Assembly (NCBI GenBank): GCA_035759075.1
Contig: DASTVO010000152.1
Span: forward strand, 1 to 45,076
Length of the DNA stretch: 45,076 nucleotides
Source: Actinomycetes bacterium
GTDB taxonomy: Bacteria; Actinomycetota; Actinomycetes; JACCUZ01
Direction of reading: 5' to 3'
Under the pieces are notes generated by a model. It made no database searches. It saw only the letters and a list, made by a program, of their open reading frames with translations, and was not told the DNA's origin. Made by a program: the position numbers and the translations under genes. Below are positions 28,354-33,380 of the stretch, piece after piece. The first letter of the stretch is position 1. Each line of letters begins with the position of its first letter.

Positions 28354-28441
28354 GAAAGTCGGTTGTGTCGCGCAGCGCACAGACGAAGTCGCCTGGCCCC
28401 TGCAGTATTTCGCCCAAGCCCGGACCTACCAGGAGGACACC

Positions 28442-28654
28442 ATGAGCGAGAACGACACCACCAAGGACCAGCTCGACGACGTCGAGGGTCACGTGCTCAA
28501 GCGGCCCAGCGCTGCCGAGGTCGACGACGTCTCGGGTCACGCGCTCAAGCGGCCGTCCGCCCAGGACGAGGACGACGTCGAGGGCCACGCCCTCAAGCGG
28601 CCGTCCGCCCAGGACGAGGACGACGTCGAGGGCCACGCCCTCAAGCGTCCGTAA
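28442..28654 (+). CDS. Small acidic repeat protein (70 aa; 16-aa unit DDVEGHALKRPSAQDE, 3.7 copies)
   Basis: AGGAGG lies 7 nt upstream of ATG 28442. The product is MSENDTTKDQLDDVEGHVLKRPSAAEVDDVSGHALKRPSAQDEDDVEGHALKRPSAQDEDDVEGHALKRP. The repeats are in frame and the protein ends exactly at a unit boundary. Confidence 0.7.
   Translation: MSENDTTKDQLDDVEGHVLKRPSAAEVDDVSGHALKRPSAQDEDDVEGHALKRPSAQDEDDVEGHALKRP
28475..28651 (+). repeat. 48-nt tandem repeat (3.7 copies) inside the small CDS
   Basis: Units are 28475-28522, 28523-28570, 28571-28618 and a partial 28619-28651. Unit 4 is identical to the corresponding part of unit 3 except for one base (gcggccg versus gcgtccg). Confidence 0.9.
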
Positions 28655-28657
28655 CAA

Positions 28658-28672
28658 CCCTCCTCGGGAGGG
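28658..28672. terminator. Hairpin in the 30-nt gap between the convergent repeat-protein and S8 genes
   Basis: CCCTCC-tcg-GGAGGG. It could act as a bidirectional terminator. The stem is short and there is no clear U-tract. Confidence 0.4.
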
Positions 28673-28684
28673 CTGAGACCGTGC

Positions 28685-29491
28685 TCACGCCGTGGCGTTG
28701 TCTGCCACGGCGTGCAGCACGGTCTTCACGTGGAAGGGGGTCAGCCCGGGGTGCTTGGACAGCAGCCGGGCGATCAGACCGGCGACATGAGGGGCCGCGA
28801 AGCTGTTCCCGGTGGTCACGATGGTCCCGCCGCCCTTCCAGGCGACCGTGACGTCGATGCCGGGGGCCCCGAACTCCACCGGCGGCCGGGGGTTGTAGTC
28901 GATGCCGAACGGGTCGTGCCGGTCGTGGGCCGCGACCGAGAACACCGACGCGTACTGCGACGGGTAGCTCGGCGCCGGCACGTTGTTCACCGCGCACACC
29001 AGCATCACGTTGGCGAAGTAGGCGCGGTCGGCGAGCTCGTGAAAGAGCGCGAAGTAGTCCTCCTTGCCGGTGCTCAGTGACAGGTTGACGACCCGGAAGC
29101 CGTGGTCGATCGCCCACTCGAGGCCGGCCGCGAAGACCAGGCCCTTGCCGGTGAGGCGCTCCCCGAGGACCCGGATGCTGTGCAGACGGCACTGCGGCGC
29201 GACGGCCCGGACGATGCCGGCGCACGCGGTGCCGTGCCCGAAGAGGTCCTGGTGCGGTCCCTCGACCCGCCGGACGCCGTCCTCCTCGTCTGGGTCGTAC
29301 GACATGGCCACGGCCGACGTGACGGCACCGACCAACGGGTGGTCGGCGTCCACGCCGCTGTCGATGACCGCCACGTCGACGCCGGAACCGTCCGCGCCGC
29401 CCCAGGCCCACTCCCGGGTGATGCCCTGGGGGAAGGGCCGGACAGACGTCAGGGTGGCCGGGTCGAAGAGCTCCGACCAGGCCGGTCTCAG
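28685..29491 (-). CDS. S8 family (subtilisin-like) serine peptidase without signal peptide or propeptide
   Basis: The catalytic triad contexts are intact: VAVIDSGVDADHP (Asp), HGTACAG (His) and GNSFAAPHVAG (Ser). No ATG, GTG or TTG lies in frame near the domain start. The 5' end is set at CTG 29491-29489, which overlaps the GAF gene's TGA, so it is uncertain (see findings). Confidence 0.8.
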   Translation of the reverse strand: MRPAWSELFDPATLTSVRPFPQGITREWAWGGADGSGVDVAVIDSGVDADHPLVGAVTSAVAMSYDPDEEDGVRRVEGPHQDLFGHGTACAGIVRAVAPQCRLHSIRVLGERLTGKGLVFAAGLEWAIDHGFRVVNLSLSTGKEDYFALFHELADRAYFANVMLVCAVNNVPAPSYPSQYASVFSVAAHDRHDPFGIDYNPRPPVEFGAPGIDVTVAWKGGGTIVTTGNSFAAPHVAGLIARLLSKHPGLTPFHVKTVLHAVADNATA

Positions 29492-30252
29492 CTCAGACGT
29501 CGTCCCCGCCCCCTGACGGCGGACTGCCTCACGTACGTCAGCAGCGACTCGACGACACCTCTCGCGAGCGCGCGCTCGGCCGACCCCATGCGGTCGAGGT
29601 GCCCGAGCAGGGCGGCCAGGGCCAGCAGGTCCTTGTCCGGTTCGCCCGCTCGGTCCGCGGCCGCTGCCAGCGCCTCGGCCAGCGGCGTCTCGGGCGCGGC
29701 AGCTGCGACGGCCTCCAGGACCGACCTGCCGAGCTCGGAGAACGCCCGAGAGTTCTCGATCGCCAACGCCGCCTGGTCGGCGAACAGGGAGAGCAGTCGC
29801 ATGTCCTGCTCGGCACCGGGCCGGGAGGCGTCGCGGTCGAGCACCTCGATGACGCCCAGGACCCGGCGCGGGCTGGTGACCGGTACCGCGAGGATGGCCG
29901 TCGGCACGTAGCCGGTGGACTCGGCGACGTCCGTAGCGAAGCGGGCGTCCTGCTGGAGGTCGGCGATCGAGATGGGCTGCTCCGACATCACGACCCATCC
30001 GGCGATGCCCTGCCCGGCCGGGATGCGGAGATCGACGACGTCGTCGGCGCCCGTGCCGGCGGCGGTGGTGAAGACCAGCTCGGACTGGTCGTCGGTCAGC
30101 AGCGCCAACGAGCACGCCTGGGCGCCGAACAGCTCCCGCGCGGCCTCGGTGATGCTGTGCAGCAGCTCGCTCGTCCCGACCGGTGCCAGGGCGGGCCCGA
30201 CCGCCGTCAGGACCCGGCTGAGGTCCTCGAGGAGCTCCCCGTCCTCGCTCAC
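29488..30252 (-). CDS. GAF domain-containing protein
   Basis: 254 aa with a GTG start. The GAF core (ACSLALL..LVFTTAAG..GIAGWVV..PISIADL..AILAVPV..GVIEVLD) is followed by an alpha-helical C-terminal region of about 80 aa. Confidence 0.85.
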   Translation of the reverse strand: MSEDGELLEDLSRVLTAVGPALAPVGTSELLHSITEAARELFGAQACSLALLTDDQSELVFTTAAGTGADDVVDLRIPAGQGIAGWVVMSEQPISIADLQQDARFATDVAESTGYVPTAILAVPVTSPRRVLGVIEVLDRDASRPGAEQDMRLLSLFADQAALAIENSRAFSELGRSVLEAVAAAAPETPLAEALAAAADRAGEPDKDLLALAALLGHLDRMGSAERALARGVVESLLTYVRQSAVRGRGRRLS

Positions 30253-30256
30253 CGGG

Positions 30257-30676
30257 TCAGCGCGTCCTGGCCTCCGCAGCGCGCAGATGCCGGCAGAGGC
30301 CGAGCAGAAGGGCGTGAGCCATCTTCGGGTGCGCCTCGAGGAGCGGCGCGAAGTTCCAGGCCGGCAGTGACAGCGTCCGCACCGTGCCGTCCGGGACGAT
30401 CGTGGCTGACCGCGGCTTGCCGTCGAGCAGTGAGATCTCCCCGAAGTAGTCGCCGGGCCCGAGCGTGCCCTTCACTTCGCCGTGCTGCTTCACCGTGACC
30501 GTCCCGTCGAGGATCAGGTGGAAGCCGACCCCGCTCTTGCCTTCTTCGGCGAGCTCGCCACCGGCGTCATGGGTCACCTCACGGGACCGGCTCAGGACGT
30601 CACGAAGCTCCTTGTCCGACAGGCCCTGGAACAGGGGGACGGAACGAAGCCGCTCGAGCATCTCCGTGTCAGCCAT
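30257..30676 (-). CDS. Stand-alone cyclic-nucleotide-binding domain protein
   Basis: 139 aa from ATG 30676, with LFQGLSDKELRDV...GDYFGEISLLDGKPRSATIVP, a phosphate-binding cassette containing Arg. It has no output domain. Its stop lies 4 nt before the GAF gene start. Confidence 0.85.
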   Translation of the reverse strand: MADTEMLERLRSVPLFQGLSDKELRDVLSRSREVTHDAGGELAEEGKSGVGFHLILDGTVTVKQHGEVKGTLGPGDYFGEISLLDGKPRSATIVPDGTVRTLSLPAWNFAPLLEAHPKMAHALLLGLCRHLRAAEARTR

Positions 30677-30833
30677 CAGCCACCCATCTCGACGTGTCCG
30701 GTGCCACCAGCCATCGCGGCACAGCGAACGCTGCCACCGCGGACCACCGCGCGCAACCACTTCTGATCTCTGCGCGAGCCCTGGTCCCGGAGATCAACCA
30801 GACCGCAGACGCCCAACCGTCATCGGCCGCATC

Positions 30834-33380
30834 ATGTGGGGCGTGCGCACCGACCTGCCGACCGGGACGGTGACGTTCCTGTTCACCGACATCGAGGGCT
30901 CGACCCGGCTGCTGCACGAGCTGGGGAGCGAGGCGTACGCCGCGGCGCTGCTCGAGCACCGGCGGCTGGTGCGTGCCGCCTGCGCTGCGTACGACGGCGT
31001 CGAGGTCGACACCCAGGGCGACGCGTTCTTCGTCGCCTTCCCGACTGCCCCAGGCGCGGTGCTGGCTGCCGCGCGCATCGTCGAGGACCTACGCCCGGGT
31101 CCGATCCGGCTCCGGATGGGGCTGCACACCGGGACGCCGTACGTCACCGCCGAGGGTTACGTCGGTGAGGACGTGCACCGTGCTGCGCGGATCGCGGCGT
31201 GCGGACACGGCGGACAGGTGCTTGTGTCATCGGCCACCGCCGCCCTGCTGCGACCCGGCACGCTGCCCGACGGGCTGGACCTGCGCGACCTAGGTGACCA
31301 CCGGCTCAAGGACCTCTCCGCCGCCGAACGCATCCACCAGCTGGGCGACGACGACTTCGCGCCGCTGAAGAGCCTGCACCGCACGAACCTCCCGGTGCCG
31401 GCGACGCCGTTTCTCGGCCGTACCCGGGAGCTGGCGGAGGTGACGGATCTGCTGTCTCGCGTGGATGTCCGGCTGCTGACTCTGACCGGCCCCGGCGGGA
31501 CGGGGAAGAGCCGACTGGCCCTGCAGGCCGCGGCCGAGGTGTCGGACCGCTTTCCCGGCGGGGTGTTCTGGGTGCCACTGGCACCGCTGCGTGACCCCGG
31601 CCTCGTGCTCGCGACGGCCGCTGCCGCGGTGGGAACCGGGGAGGACCTGCGGGACCACATCGGGGACAAGTCGATGCTCCTGCTGCTCGACAACTTCGAG
31701 CACCTCATGGGAGCGACCGCTGACCTCCACAGCCTCATGGCCACCTGCCCGAAGGTCGTCCTGCTCGTGACCAGCCGCGAGACCCTGCGCCTGCCGGGCG
31801 AGCAGGCCTACCCGGTGCCGCCGCTCCGCGGCGACGAGGCCGTCGAGCTCTTTGCCGCCCGGGCACGCGCGGCCGACCCGCACTTCGTCCCCGGCCCCAC
31901 GCTCGTGCTGCTCACCGAGCGGCTCGACCGGCTCCCGCTGGCCATCGAGCTTGCCGCGGCGCGCGTCCGGGTCCTCACGATGGATCAGCTCGTCGACCGC
32001 CTGGACCGCCGGCTCGACCTGCTCAAGGCCGGACGTGGCGCCGACCCCCGCCAGCAGACACTTCGCGCGACGATCGAGTGGAGCCACGATCTGCTCGACG
32101 ACGAGGAGAGACGGCTGTTCGCCCGGCTCGGCGTGTTCTCCGGAGGCTGCACGCTGGAGTCCGCGGAGAGGGTCTGCGATGCCGACCTCGACGTGCTGGA
32201 GTCGCTCGTCGACAAGAGTCTGGTACGTGTTCGCGACGGTGACCGCTTCTGGATGCTCGAGACGATCCGTGAGTACGCCGTCGAACGTCTCCGGGACAGT
32301 GCGGAGCTGGCCGAGCTTCGGCGCCGCCACGCCGAACACTTCCTCGCCCTGGGCGAGGAGGCGGCGCCGCACCTGCGAGGCTCGGCGGCCGCGCGGTGGC
32401 TCGACCGGCTCGACGACGAGCACGACAACGTGCGGGCCGCGCTGGAGTGGTTCGCCCGCGAGCAGCGGGTGGACGAGCATCTGCGCCTGGCCGCATCGCT
32501 CGTCGAGTTCTGGCTGAGCCGCGGGTTCCTGAGCGAGGGCCGTCGCATCCTGGCCGACGCTCTTGCAGCAGGCGACGGTGAGCCGGGGTCGCGGGCCCGC
32601 GCGCTCGACGGGGCCGCGGTCCTCGCCGTGTCCGCAGGCGACACGGGCGCGGCACGGTCGCCCGCGGCCGAGGCACTGGCGATCCACCAACGGCTCGGCG
32701 ACGAGGCGGCCCGTGCCGAGTCCCTGTGGACCCTCGGGTACGTGGCCGTCGAGGACAAGGACTGGTCGGCGGCGCAGAAGGCAGTGGAGGAGAGCACGAG
32801 CATCTTCAGGAGGGTGGGCGACGTCCCGAGCCTTCTCGGCGCGAGCCGCACGCTGGCGTGGATCCACCACATGCGCGGCGATCTCGACACGGCACGCCGG
32901 CTGCACGAGCAGAACCTCGCGCTGGCGAGAGGCGCGGGCCATCAGGCGGTCCAGGCGGCGATCCTCGGCTCGCTGGGGAACATCGCAACGGAGCAGGGCC
33001 GCCTGGCCGATGCCGCGACGATGCTCCGTGAGAACCAGCGGCTGGTCGAGGCCCTCGGGGACCGCACGGCCATCGTCGTGAACCTGGCCCGAATCGCTCG
33101 GCTGCTCGCCCTCCTCGGCGAGCGGGAGACGGCGGCCGCTCTGCTGGCCTGCTCGGAGGAAGCGAGCCGGACCATGGGCGGGTGGGAAGCCTGGGCGGGC
33201 GTCCTGAACGACGGGACGCGGGCGATGCTGGAGGGTCTCCCCCAGGACCTCTGGGAGAGAGCCGCCCGACGCGGGGTCCGGCTCGCGCCGGAAGACGCAG
33301 CTCGCGAGGCGCTCTCGGTGGCGGCGCAAGCTCTCGAGCCCGAGCATCGGGCCCACGGTTCCAGCGGGGAGCAGTGCTGA
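30834..33380 (+). CDS. Class III nucleotidyl cyclase domain fused to STAND (NB-ARC-like) P-loop ATPase and TPR array
   Basis: 848 aa from ATG 30834. The cyclase fold is TFLFTDIEGST..QGDAFFVAF..GEDVHRAARI..GGQVLVS. The Walker A motif is GPGGTGKS and Walker B is LLLLDNFEH. The C-terminal roughly 350 aa are repetitive helical, TPR-like. Confidence 0.88.
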   Translation: MWGVRTDLPTGTVTFLFTDIEGSTRLLHELGSEAYAAALLEHRRLVRAACAAYDGVEVDTQGDAFFVAFPTAPGAVLAAARIVEDLRPGPIRLRMGLHTGTPYVTAEGYVGEDVHRAARIAACGHGGQVLVSSATAALLRPGTLPDGLDLRDLGDHRLKDLSAAERIHQLGDDDFAPLKSLHRTNLPVPATPFLGRTRELAEVTDLLSRVDVRLLTLTGPGGTGKSRLALQAAAEVSDRFPGGVFWVPLAPLRDPGLVLATAAAAVGTGEDLRDHIGDKSMLLLLDNFEHLMGATADLHSLMATCPKVVLLVTSRETLRLPGEQAYPVPPLRGDEAVELFAARARAADPHFVPGPTLVLLTERLDRLPLAIELAAARVRVLTMDQLVDRLDRRLDLLKAGRGADPRQQTLRATIEWSHDLLDDEERRLFARLGVFSGGCTLESAERVCDADLDVLESLVDKSLVRVRDGDRFWMLETIREYAVERLRDSAELAELRRRHAEHFLALGEEAAPHLRGSAAARWLDRLDDEHDNVRAALEWFAREQRVDEHLRLAASLVEFWLSRGFLSEGRRILADALAAGDGEPGSRARALDGAAVLAVSAGDTGAARSPAAEALAIHQRLGDEAARAESLWTLGYVAVEDKDWSAAQKAVEESTSIFRRVGDVPSLLGASRTLAWIHHMRGDLDTARRLHEQNLALARGAGHQAVQAAILGSLGNIATEQGRLADAATMLRENQRLVEALGDRTAIVVNLARIARLLALLGERETAAALLACSEEASRTMGGWEAWAGVLNDGTRAMLEGLPQDLWERAARRGVRLAPEDAAREALSVAAQALEPEHRAHGSSGEQC

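What the first reader, a model, noticed from the sequence alone, without database searches (positions are those of the whole stretch)
29488..29513. GAF/S8 junction: S8 has no canonical start, and a G5 run would allow a -1 shift giving a GAF-subtilase fusion
On the minus strand the GAF frame ends ...YVRQSAV-RGRGRRLS-TGA, an Arg-rich tail that looks out of frame. In the -1 frame the same DNA reads ...QGAGTTSELRPAWSELFDPATL..., which runs straight into the S8 catalytic domain. That S8 frame has no ATG, GTG or TTG for more than 60 codons upstream of the domain. The only nearby option is a CTG overlapping the GAF stop (CTGA). The two frames cross at GTC-AGG-GGG-CGG-GGA (forward-strand CCCCC 29509-29513 and CCCC 29504-29507). 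A tRNA-Gly on GGG could re-pair one base back, and a homopolymer sequencing indel would have the same effect.

Three explanations are possible:
- (a) Reinitiation at CTG.
- (b) A programmed -1 frameshift producing both a GAF protein and a GAF-S8 fusion.
- (c) An assembly error hiding a single GAF-S8 gene of about 515 aa.

In every case the protease is physically or translationally tied to a small-molecule-sensing GAF domain.
Basis: seen in the sequence. Interest (0 to 1): 0.6.

Follow-up and report, generated by a model that had tools for sequence, protein, structure and literature searches.

The report
Protease gene starting at ACG codon
The protease gene behind the GAF sensor gene really has no normal start codon, but comparison with about 150 related loci points to a start at a conserved ACG codon behind a strong ribosome-binding site, not to a frameshift, a CTG start or an assembly error.

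Summary
On the minus strand the GAF gene (30252..29488) ends in TGA. The S8 peptidase frame is -1 to it. Its nearest canonical starts lie 169 codons upstream and 39 codons downstream of the CTG.

- Assembly error: the same frame relation recurs in every locus.
- CTG start: 28 of 77 start-less orthologues have CTA there, a synonymous Leu.
- Frameshift at G5: in most start-less loci the G-run reads GAAAGGCGG, which is not slippery, and no RNA structure is conserved.

All 77 start-less loci share RRAGGCGG, then 5 nt, then ACG, then 6 nt, then CTR-A (the GAF stop).
- The A of ACG is invariant at a GAF third-codon position where A normally occurs 4.9% of the time.
- Other lineages have ATG or GTG at exactly that codon.
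- Predicted anti-SD pairing averages -11.2 kcal/mol, against -3.9 in canonical-start orthologues.

Best reading (about 0.7): S8 starts at ACG 29500..29498 and overlaps GAF by 13 nt. The G5 run is part of its ribosome-binding site.

The GAF-protease link is supported by conserved overlap and rare natural fusions. There is no RNA, read or protein evidence.

The parts
29488..30252 (-). GAF-domain protein gene (254 aa, GTG start, TGA stop). Its Arg/Gly-rich tail RGRGRRLS is in the correct frame.
   Evidence: ORF list. Pfam GAF_2 2.9e-20. Orthologues end at the same place with similar Arg-rich tails such as RGRGRRPS and ERRPSRPR.
29506..29514 (-). Shine-Dalgarno-like element AGGGGGCGG.
   Evidence: It aligns with the conserved G-R-R-A-G-G-C-G-G at -14..-6 before the ACG in 77 loci. 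Predicted pairing with the anti-SD tail is -10.2 kcal/mol in the window and averages -11.2 in the ACG-type loci, against -4.3 for background.
29498..29500 (-). ACG, the proposed start codon of the S8 gene. It sits 5 nt after the GGCGG core.
   Evidence: ACG is present in 77 of 77 start-less orthologues. ATG or GTG occupies the same codon in L114, L126 and L118. Its A is invariant at a site where A occurs 4.9% of the time, while the GAF residue there varies among S, P, R, L, G, Q and A.
29488..29491 (-). CTGA: the Leu codon CTG of the S8 frame overlapping the GAF stop TGA.
   Evidence: In ACG-type orthologues this codon is CTG 49 times and CTA 28 times, with the GAF stop TGA or TAA accordingly.
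28685..29500 (-). S8 (subtilisin-family) serine peptidase gene as re-annotated here. It encodes 271 aa plus a stop, with N-terminus (M/T)SELRPAWSELF. There is no signal peptide and no propeptide.
   Evidence: Pfam Peptidase_S8 3.4e-27. Nearest NCBIfam models are QhpE (111.8 bits) and mycosin (109 bits), both below their cut-offs. The catalytic D/H/S motifs are kept in 74 of 77 ACG-type orthologues. Three-base periodicity in the S8 frame begins right after the GAF stop.
30257..30760 (-). Stand-alone cyclic-nucleotide-binding protein gene, first gene of the apparent operon. Its start is uncertain: GTG 30760 or ATG 30676. Its stop lies 5 nt before the GAF start.
   Evidence: Pfam cNMP_binding 3.6e-13. 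cNMP-binding or Crp-type genes flank the GAF-S8 pair in many loci.
28441..28657 (+). Small DVEGH-repeat protein gene, convergent with the S8 gene. Context only.
   Evidence: ORF list. A gene with at least two D[VIL][EDS]GH repeats lies within the held DNA downstream of S8 in 25 of 137 loci with enough flank.

Best explanation
GAF and S8 are two separate, overlapping genes of one operon.

The S8 peptidase is translated from a non-canonical ACG start codon (29500..29498, minus strand). This codon lies inside the last codons of the GAF gene, 13 nt before the end of the GAF stop. A strong Shine-Dalgarno-like element (AGGGGGCGG in the window, consensus GRRAGGCGG) sits 5 nt upstream of it.

The odd Arg/Gly-rich tail of the GAF protein is simply what these signals spell in the GAF frame.

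The steps below are inferred, not shown:
- The initiator tRNA reads ACG poorly, so the protease is made at a small fraction of the level of its GAF partner.
- Ribosomes that finish GAF 13 nt downstream may add to initiation by re-starting locally.
- The two proteins then act together. GAF is the likely ligand-sensing regulator of a cytoplasmic protease that has no propeptide.
For: 1. 77 of the 78 orthologous junctions without ATG/GTG/TTG have ACG at codon -5 (three at -6) before the Pro of the conserved RPAW. The 78th has ATT after GGAGG.
2. L114 and L126 have ATG and L118 has GTG at exactly codon -5. L100, L146 and L148 have ATG at -4.
3. The A of ACG is 77/77 although it is the third base of a GAF codon that varies (TCA, CCA, CGA, CTA, GGA, CAA, GCA). 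A is used at 4.9% of four-fold sites in the GAF ORFs of the same loci.
4. The element GRRAGGCGG is conserved at -14..-6. GG at -10 and -9 is kept in 76 and 75 of 77, while the GAF residue there alternates between Arg and Gly.
5. Predicted anti-SD pairing averages -11.2 kcal/mol before the ACG, with 95% at or below -8 and a spacing of 3-5 nt. Canonical-start orthologues average -3.9 and background -4.3. Mann-Whitney p = 1e-22. The anti-SD tail GGATCACCTCCTTTCT is found in 11 of 21 relatives.
6. The first base of the Leu codon (C, 75/77) is conserved at a GAF third position, and S8-frame periodicity follows. The S8 frame is therefore read from upstream of that codon.
7. ACG-type S8 genes are intact, diverge down to 61% identity, and span at least four actinobacterial orders.
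8. ACG can initiate in bacteria. In E. coli an ACG-GFP construct gave protein with N-terminal Met (bioRxiv 10.1101/063800). In mycobacteriophage Corndog, peptides of the tape-measure protein begin beside an ACG that replaces the ATG of sister phages (PMC4351075).
Against: - There is no direct evidence: no N-terminal peptide, no ribosome profiling, no reads.
- ACG is a poor initiator in E. coli, in the 0.1-1% of AUG class. It is not in the start list of genetic code table 11.
- I found no described chromosomal bacterial gene with an ACG start in the open literature searched.
- The CG of ACG is also explained by a conserved Arg in the GAF frame, so only the A is independent evidence.
- The sequences are phylogenetically related, so the counts overstate independence.
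- In the window's own subclade the -2 codon is always CTG and the G5 run is mostly kept. A contribution from CTG or from slippage cannot be excluded there.
Confidence: 0.7

Rival explanations
1. Termination-reinitiation at the CTG that overlaps the GAF stop (CTGA). Ribosomes finishing GAF restart on CUG and make a 268-aa protease.
For: - Many orthologues have ATG, GTG or TTG at exactly this codon as an NTGA overlap, for example L036, L041, L053, L077, L034 and L113. The site is therefore a proven start position in the family.
- All 8 distinct start-less sequences of the window's subclade (clade A) have CTG.
- CUG belongs to the better class of near-cognate starts in E. coli, at 1-2% of AUG.
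Against: - 28 of 77 start-less orthologues have CTA, and L032 and L112 have GTA. Neither can pair with the initiator tRNA.
- The codon varies synonymously, like an ordinary Leu.
- L100, L146 and L148 read M-x-L-R-P-A-W with this Leu internal.
- The strong SD-like element ends 14 nt upstream of it. Predicted pairing within the 20 nt before this codon averages only -5.5 kcal/mol.
- This reading does not explain the invariant ACG.
Confidence: 0.12
2. Programmed -1 ribosomal frameshift on the G5 run (A GGG GGC). It would give a GAF protein plus a roughly 515-aa GAF-S8 fusion.
For: - tRNA-Gly on GGG can re-pair one base back.
- The run is kept in 7 of 8 sequences of the window's subclade, and also in L034 and L113.
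- The S8 frame is open across it.
- Natural GAF-S8 fusions show that a fused protein is viable.
Against: - In the large ACG-type clade the homologous stretch is GAAAGGCGG, GAGAGGCGG or GGAAGGCGG, with no slippery run.
- In L003 the run is in another phase.
- L144 has an S8-frame TGA four codons before the ACG, which leaves only non-slippery sequence.
- There is no conserved downstream structure: alifold energy is -0.19, and the window's fold z-score is -1.7. There is no Rfam match.
- The run is still present where a canonical GTG or TTG start exists (L113, L034).
- Canonical-start orthologues are plainly two genes.
Confidence: 0.06
3. The ACG is converted to AUG in the mRNA by C-to-U editing, so initiation is canonical at the RNA level.
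For: Only the strict conservation of ACG rather than any other near-cognate codon. ACG-to-AUG editing is known in plant organelles (mentioned in PMC9845219).
Against: - To my knowledge no site-specific C-to-U mRNA editing is known in bacteria.
- The trait is spread over several actinobacterial orders and is specific to this gene.
- One locus uses ATT instead (L104), which editing would not explain.
Confidence: 0.03
4. Assembly or sequencing indel in a homopolymer that hides a single GAF-S8 gene.
For: G5 and G4 runs are present. Two database proteins of 521 aa are fused.
Against: - The same frame offset is found in every one of 153 distinct junctions from many projects and technologies.
- Canonical-start orthologues have the same -1 offset through ATGA or GTGA overlaps.
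- The GAF-frame tail and stop are conserved.
Confidence: 0.01

Closest known systems
AUU start codon of infC (IF3) and of pcnB in E. coli: a weak non-canonical start kept by selection (from my own knowledge)
   Same: A conserved near-cognate start codon in a chromosomal gene. It lowers expression, and for infC it makes expression sensitive to initiation fidelity. A normal ribosome-binding site is present.
   Different: Here the codon is ACG, a mismatch at the second position, and it is not in the table 11 start list. The start lies inside the upstream gene. The paired SD is unusually strong. There is no experimental proof.
ACG at the start position of the tape-measure gene of mycobacteriophage Corndog (PMC4351075)
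   Same: An actinobacterial translation system. ACG sits exactly where relatives have ATG, and there is no canonical start upstream. In Corndog, peptides support translation from that point.
   Different: That is a phage gene in three closely related phages, and its authors left ribosome bypass open. This is a cellular gene conserved across at least four actinobacterial orders with a compensating SD, but without peptide data.
Translational coupling of overlapping gene pairs (ATGA/GTGA, termination-reinitiation; PMC10666635)
   Same: Same-strand genes with a short overlap that probably encode partners. About half of the orthologues have the classical NTGA or similar overlap.
   Different: In the window the overlap is 13 nt and the restart codon is ACG with its own strong SD, whereas canonical-start orthologues have no SD above background.
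dnaX-type programmed -1 frameshifting (slippery A AAA AAG, upstream SD-like stimulator, downstream hairpin; from my own knowledge)
   Same: An internal SD-like element near the end of an ORF, with a second frame open downstream.
   Different: No conserved slippery heptamer, no conserved hairpin, and no conservation of the supposed trans-frame peptide.
QhpE, a small cytoplasmic subtilisin-like maturation protease (NCBIfam NF049966)
   Same: The best-scoring curated model for the S8 domain (111.8 bits). Both are minimal subtilases without a signal peptide or propeptide.
   Different: The score is below the 165-bit cut-off. The window protein has an extra conserved N-terminal stretch of about 40 aa (LRPAWS...TREWAW) and a GAF partner. 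No qhp genes are nearby.

Membership tests
Programmed -1 ribosomal frameshift site | Slippery sequence conserved among orthologues that need the shift | tested here: not met
   The G5 run occurs only in the window's subclade. The 69 ACG-type loci of the large clade carry variants of GAAAGGCGG.
Programmed -1 ribosomal frameshift site | Conserved downstream stimulatory RNA structure | tested here: not met
   RNAalifold on 61 distinct sequences gives -0.19 kcal/mol. The window's fold z-score is -1.7. No Rfam match.
Programmed -1 ribosomal frameshift site | Trans-frame fusion protein detected | not testable with these tools
   No proteomic or ribosome-profiling data are available.
Non-canonical (near-cognate) start codon | No canonical start available between the upstream in-frame stop and the conserved N-terminus | tested here: met
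   In the window the nearest upstream canonical start is 169 codons away. In L144 the frame is closed 4 codons before the ACG.
Non-canonical (near-cognate) start codon | The candidate codon is conserved and is replaced by ATG/GTG in relatives | tested here: met
   ACG in 77 of 77 start-less loci. ATG or GTG at the same codon in L114, L126 and L118.
Non-canonical (near-cognate) start codon | Ribosome-binding site at functional spacing | tested here: met
   Mean predicted pairing is -11.2 kcal/mol, with 3-5 nt between the duplex and the ACG.
Non-canonical (near-cognate) start codon | Protein N-terminus mapped to the codon | not testable with these tools
   No experimental data.
Translationally coupled overlapping gene pair | Same strand, with the downstream start overlapping or within a few nt of the upstream stop, conserved across orthologues | tested here: met
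   All junctions place the S8 start within codons -2 to -10 of the conserved Pro, at or overlapping the GAF stop.
Peptidase S8 (subtilase) | Pfam PF00082 above its cut-off, with the Asp/His/Ser catalytic motifs | tested here: met
   95.9 bits against a cut-off of 21.8. The window has VIDSG, HGT and GNSFAAP, and 74 of 77 ACG-type orthologues have all three motifs.
GAF domain protein | Pfam GAF models above their cut-offs | tested here: met
   GAF_2 73.3 bits against 28.6, and GAF 72.9 bits against 22.4.
QhpE / mycosin equivalogs | NCBIfam score above the curated cut-off | tested here: not met
   QhpE 111.8 against 165. Mycosin 109 against 278.75.

The most novel reading that the evidence does not exclude
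The ACG start is a selected regulatory device, not a tolerated defect. The proposal has three parts:
- A deliberately weak start codon is paired with a very strong ribosome-binding site inside the partner gene.
- This pairing holds a cytoplasmic protease that has no propeptide far below its GAF regulator in amount.
- It makes protease synthesis respond to initiation fidelity (IF3 level, stress), as the AUU start does for infC.

If so, this would be the first conserved chromosomal ACG start codon described in bacteria, kept across several actinobacterial orders.
Probability: 0.3. Interest if true: 0.7.

Novelty: new variant of a known kind. Interest (0 to 1): 0.55.

Why it matters
Gene callers and the table 11 start-codon list do not allow ACG. 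As a result, most database copies of this protease are truncated to 253-262 aa and lose the conserved N-terminal LRPAWS motif, or they could be flagged as frameshifted.

If confirmed, this locus would be a clean natural case of ACG initiation in bacteria. A visible compensating change, the gain of a strong Shine-Dalgarno sequence, comes with it. Sister lineages with ATG, GTG, TTG and ATT at or near the same site are available for comparison.

The locus also defines a widespread soil-actinobacterial pair of a GAF sensor and a minimal cytoplasmic subtilase. The pair sits next to cyclic-nucleotide-binding regulators, and its stoichiometry appears to be set at the level of translation initiation.

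Tried and rejected
- **RNA structure around the junction.** There is no conserved fold and no Rfam family.
- **Promoter and terminator scan of 28400..30900.** Nothing was found, so there is no sign of an internal promoter for S8.
- **S8-frame selection just upstream of the CTG.** From the first five sequences it looked as if substitutions there were synonymous in the S8 frame, which would have favoured a fusion. With 77 sequences this disappeared. Between the ACG and the Leu codon, the freely varying positions are third positions of the GAF frame.
- **Literature searches for natural bacterial ACG starts.** These returned only the E. coli reporter study and the Corndog phage case.
- **PADLOC.** Only generic subtilase and cNMP-domain hits appeared, and no defence system was recognised.
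- **Structure prediction.** I did not run it. The tool reports no interface information, so it would not bear on how the protease is expressed.
Full report
**1. The observation**

- On the minus strand the GAF ORF runs 30252..29488. It has a GTG start and the tail ...LLTYVRQSAVRGRGRRLS-TGA.
- The subtilase frame is -1 relative to the GAF frame.
- CTG 29491..29489 overlaps the stop TGA 29490..29488.
- The G5 run is 29513..29509 and the G4 run is 29507..29504.
- In the S8 frame the nearest upstream ATG/GTG/TTG is ATG 29998, 169 codons before the CTG.
- The next downstream one is GTG 29374, inside VDVAVIDSG at the catalytic Asp.
- Pfam confirms GAF (2.9e-20) and Peptidase_S8 (3.4e-27). The ORF upstream of GAF is a stand-alone cNMP-binding protein.

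**2. Orthologous loci**

I collected junctions from three sources:
- a search of the window's own family and its relatives;
- one scan of JGI metagenome contigs;
- one scan of one genome per GTDB species.

This gave 153 distinct GAF/S8 junctions, 152 of them with a full-length S8.

In every locus with the conserved RPAW N-terminus, the S8 gene follows the GAF gene on the same strand. Its start overlaps or abuts the GAF stop.

74 loci have a canonical start, 2 to 7 codons before the Pro of the conserved RPAW motif. Examples:
- ATGA, GTGA or TTGA overlaps at codon -2 (L036, L041, L053, L055, L077 and others);
- ATG or GTG at -3 to -6, as in clade B of the window's own family (L005 to L012).

These are plainly two coupled genes. 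Together with the identical frame offset everywhere, this rules out an assembly error.

**3. The start-less half**

78 loci have no ATG, GTG or TTG between the conserved N-terminus and the next upstream S8-frame stop, or within 7 codons where that frame stays open.

They include the window and all close relatives in its subclade: L002, L003, L004, L013, L021, L028 and L031, at 73-84% S8 identity. They also include a large, well-supported clade of soil Actinomycetota (74 rows, support 100).

Named members belong to Streptosporangiales, Mycobacteriales, Frankiales and Motilibacterales, the last being the isolate Motilibacter deserti E257.

ACG-type S8 proteins diverge to 61% identity. 74 of 77 keep all three catalytic motifs under strict patterns. 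They are not pseudogenes.

**4. What the start-less loci share**

Aligned on the S8 frame, all share one architecture:

G-R-R-A-G-G-C-G-G, 5 nt, ACG, 6 nt, CTR, A (end of the GAF stop).

In the window this reads AGGGGGCGG (29514..29506), GGACG, ACG (29500..29498), TCTGAG, CTG-A.

Five points follow.

(i) ACG is present in 77 of 77. It is at codon -5 in 74 and at -6 in three, among them L154 and L185. The single exception, L104, has ATT at -6 behind GGAGG.

(ii) The A of ACG is the third base of a GAF-frame codon. That codon varies among TCA, CCA, CGA, CTA, GGA, CAA and GCA, which is seven different residues. At four-fold degenerate sites of the GAF ORFs in the same loci, A is used 4.9% of the time. 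The neighbouring GAF third positions (+3 and +6) are nearly free, at 0.48 and 0.45 bits.

(iii) Other lineages carry ATG (L114, L126) or GTG (L118) at exactly codon -5. Within the ACG clade, L100, L146 and L148 have ATG at -4.

(iv) The purine-rich element is constrained at the nucleotide level. GG at -10 and -9 is kept in 76 and 75 of 77, while the GAF residue it encodes switches between Arg (AGG, CGG) and Gly (GGG). AGG is used although it is a rare Arg codon in high-GC genomes.

(v) The first base of the CTR codon (C, 75/77) is conserved at a GAF third position. From the GAF stop onward the variable positions are S8-frame third positions: +14, +17, +20 and +29. The S8 frame is therefore translated through the Leu codon.

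**5. A ribosome-binding site**

I computed pairing of the 20 nt before the ACG with the actinobacterial anti-SD tail, CACCUCCUUUCU.
- ACG-type loci average -11.2 kcal/mol, and 95% are at or below -8.
- The gap between the duplex and the ACG is 3-5 nt in 71 of 77.
- The 20 nt before the starts of canonical-type orthologues average -3.9.
- Random 20-mers within the S8 ORFs average -4.3.
- Mann-Whitney p is 1e-22 against the canonical type and 8e-44 against background.

The tail GGATCACCTCCTTTCT occurs once in each of 11 of 21 relatives. The window's own MAG lacks the 16S 3' end.

So a weak start codon goes together with a strong SD, while orthologues with good start codons have none and rely on the overlap.

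In the GAF frame, RGRGRR (or ERRPSR in the large clade) is what AGG-GGG-CGG and A-CG-N spell.

**6.

(a) CTG start.
- The codon is CTG in 49 and CTA in 28 of the 77, with the GAF stop switching between TGA and TAA.
- L032 and L112 have GTA there.
- L100, L146 and L148 read M-x-L-R-P-A-W.
- It behaves as a Leu codon. The SD-like element ends 14 nt before it, and predicted pairing within its upstream 20 nt averages only -5.5 kcal/mol.
- In the window's subclade it is always CTG, so a minor contribution there cannot be excluded.

(b) -1 slip on G5.
- The run is the local version of the SD-like element. In the large clade it reads GAAAGGCGG, GAGAGGCGG, GGAAGGCGG or GGGAGGCGG, and no tRNA can re-pair at -1.
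- In L003 the G5 run is in a different phase.
- L144 has an S8-frame TGA four codons before the ACG. This leaves only AAG GCG GCC GTC as room for a shift.
- L034 and L113 keep the G5 run although they have TTG or GTG at -2.
- No RNA structure is conserved: alifold gives -0.19 kcal/mol, and the window's MFE z-score is -1.7. No Rfam family matches.

(c) Assembly error. This is excluded by recurrence across assemblies, as set out in section 2.

**7. Is ACG initiation plausible?**

- In E. coli, a GFP construct with ACG in place of AUG gave full-length protein with N-terminal Met. Some Thr was also seen. ACG falls in the 0.1-1% of AUG class (Hecht et al., bioRxiv 10.1101/063800).
- In Mycobacterium smegmatis infected with phage Corndog, peptides of the tape-measure protein start next to an ACG that replaces the ATG of sister phages. 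The authors stated that they knew of no other mycobacterial gene starting at ACG, and they left ribosome bypass open (PMC4351075).
- I found no description of a conserved chromosomal bacterial ACG start in the open library.
- Earlier notes of this scan list ACG-start candidates in other genomes. These are leads only.

**8. The GAF-protease link**

- The gene pair is conserved in Actinomycetota, Dormibacterota and Chloroflexota.
- cNMP-binding or Crp-type genes are adjacent in many loci: downstream on the same strand in 65, and upstream on the same strand in 31.
- Three database proteins are single GAF-S8 chains:
  - L090/P0001 (460 aa), in which the GAF C-terminal helices are deleted.
  - P0003 (521 aa), which reads ...ERRPSRPR-W-PAWSDAF... 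Its length fits a junction two bases shorter than in the unfused loci, but its DNA was not examined.
  - P0002 (521 aa), in which the sequence after the GAF domain turns Arg/Pro/Gly-rich, as an off-frame reading of the GAF C-terminal region would. This may be a real mutation or an error.
- These rare fusions argue that the two proteins work as one unit. They are not evidence for recoding.
- The S8 protein has no signal peptide or propeptide. Its nearest curated models are QhpE and mycosin, both below their cut-offs.

**9. Verdict**

- The finding is real, but its mechanism is different from those proposed.
- The most likely reading (about 0.7) is a conserved ACG start codon with a compensating strong Shine-Dalgarno element, embedded in the 3' end of the GAF gene.
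- What is shown: the conservation pattern, the substitution by ATG/GTG in relatives, the SD statistics, and the absence of frameshift signals.
- What is inferred: that ribosomes actually initiate at the ACG, that this keeps the protease sub-stoichiometric, and that GAF regulates the protease.
- Most database gene calls for this family are 253-262 aa against about 271 aa from the ACG. The sequences examined start after the LRPAWS motif.

Noticed in passing
L090:937-2319 (Ga0224568_1000078); proteins P0003 and P0002: Three natural single-chain GAF-S8 proteins. One is 460 aa with the GAF C-terminal helices deleted. One is 521 aa and joined exactly at the junction (...ERRPSRPR-W-PAWSDAF). One is 521 aa, with the frame changing right after the GAF domain. 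Fusions are rare: these three were the only ones among the 120 hits listed, out of 2863 in all.
   Followed up: partly
protein P0015 (495 aa, ENA): An S8 domain fused at its C-terminus to a cNMP-binding plus Crp-type HTH regulator. In L090 the same regulator gene overlaps the S8 stop. This may be a second fusion pointing to a functional link, or a lost stop codon.
   Followed up: no
L104 (Ga0308175_100005387), junction: The only start-less orthologue without ACG has ATT at codon -6, 6 nt after GGAGG. This is a second kind of non-canonical start in the same gene family.
   Followed up: partly
L013/L027 (G004:C10:1241-2051): The S8 gene of one close relative is split into two frames near residue 156-162. 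This is either a pseudogene or an assembly indel.
   Followed up: no
window 28441-28657 (+): A small protein with four DDVEGHALKRPSAQDE-type repeats, convergent with the S8 gene. A gene with at least two such repeats lies within the held DNA downstream of S8 in 25 of 137 loci with enough flank.
   Followed up: partly
proteins P0004-P0120: Most public gene calls for this protease are 253-262 aa. Those examined begin after the conserved LRPAWS motif, for example MHRIDLPIDKDWAWGG in an NCBI MAG record.
   Followed up: partly
L032, L112, L115-L117, L033: A sister group has RPAG(S/A)EKF in place of RPAWS. Two members again have AGGAGG, 5 nt, then ACG, with GTA-A at the GAF stop. The others have an ATG 15-18 codons further upstream, giving an N-terminal extension.
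   Followed up: partly
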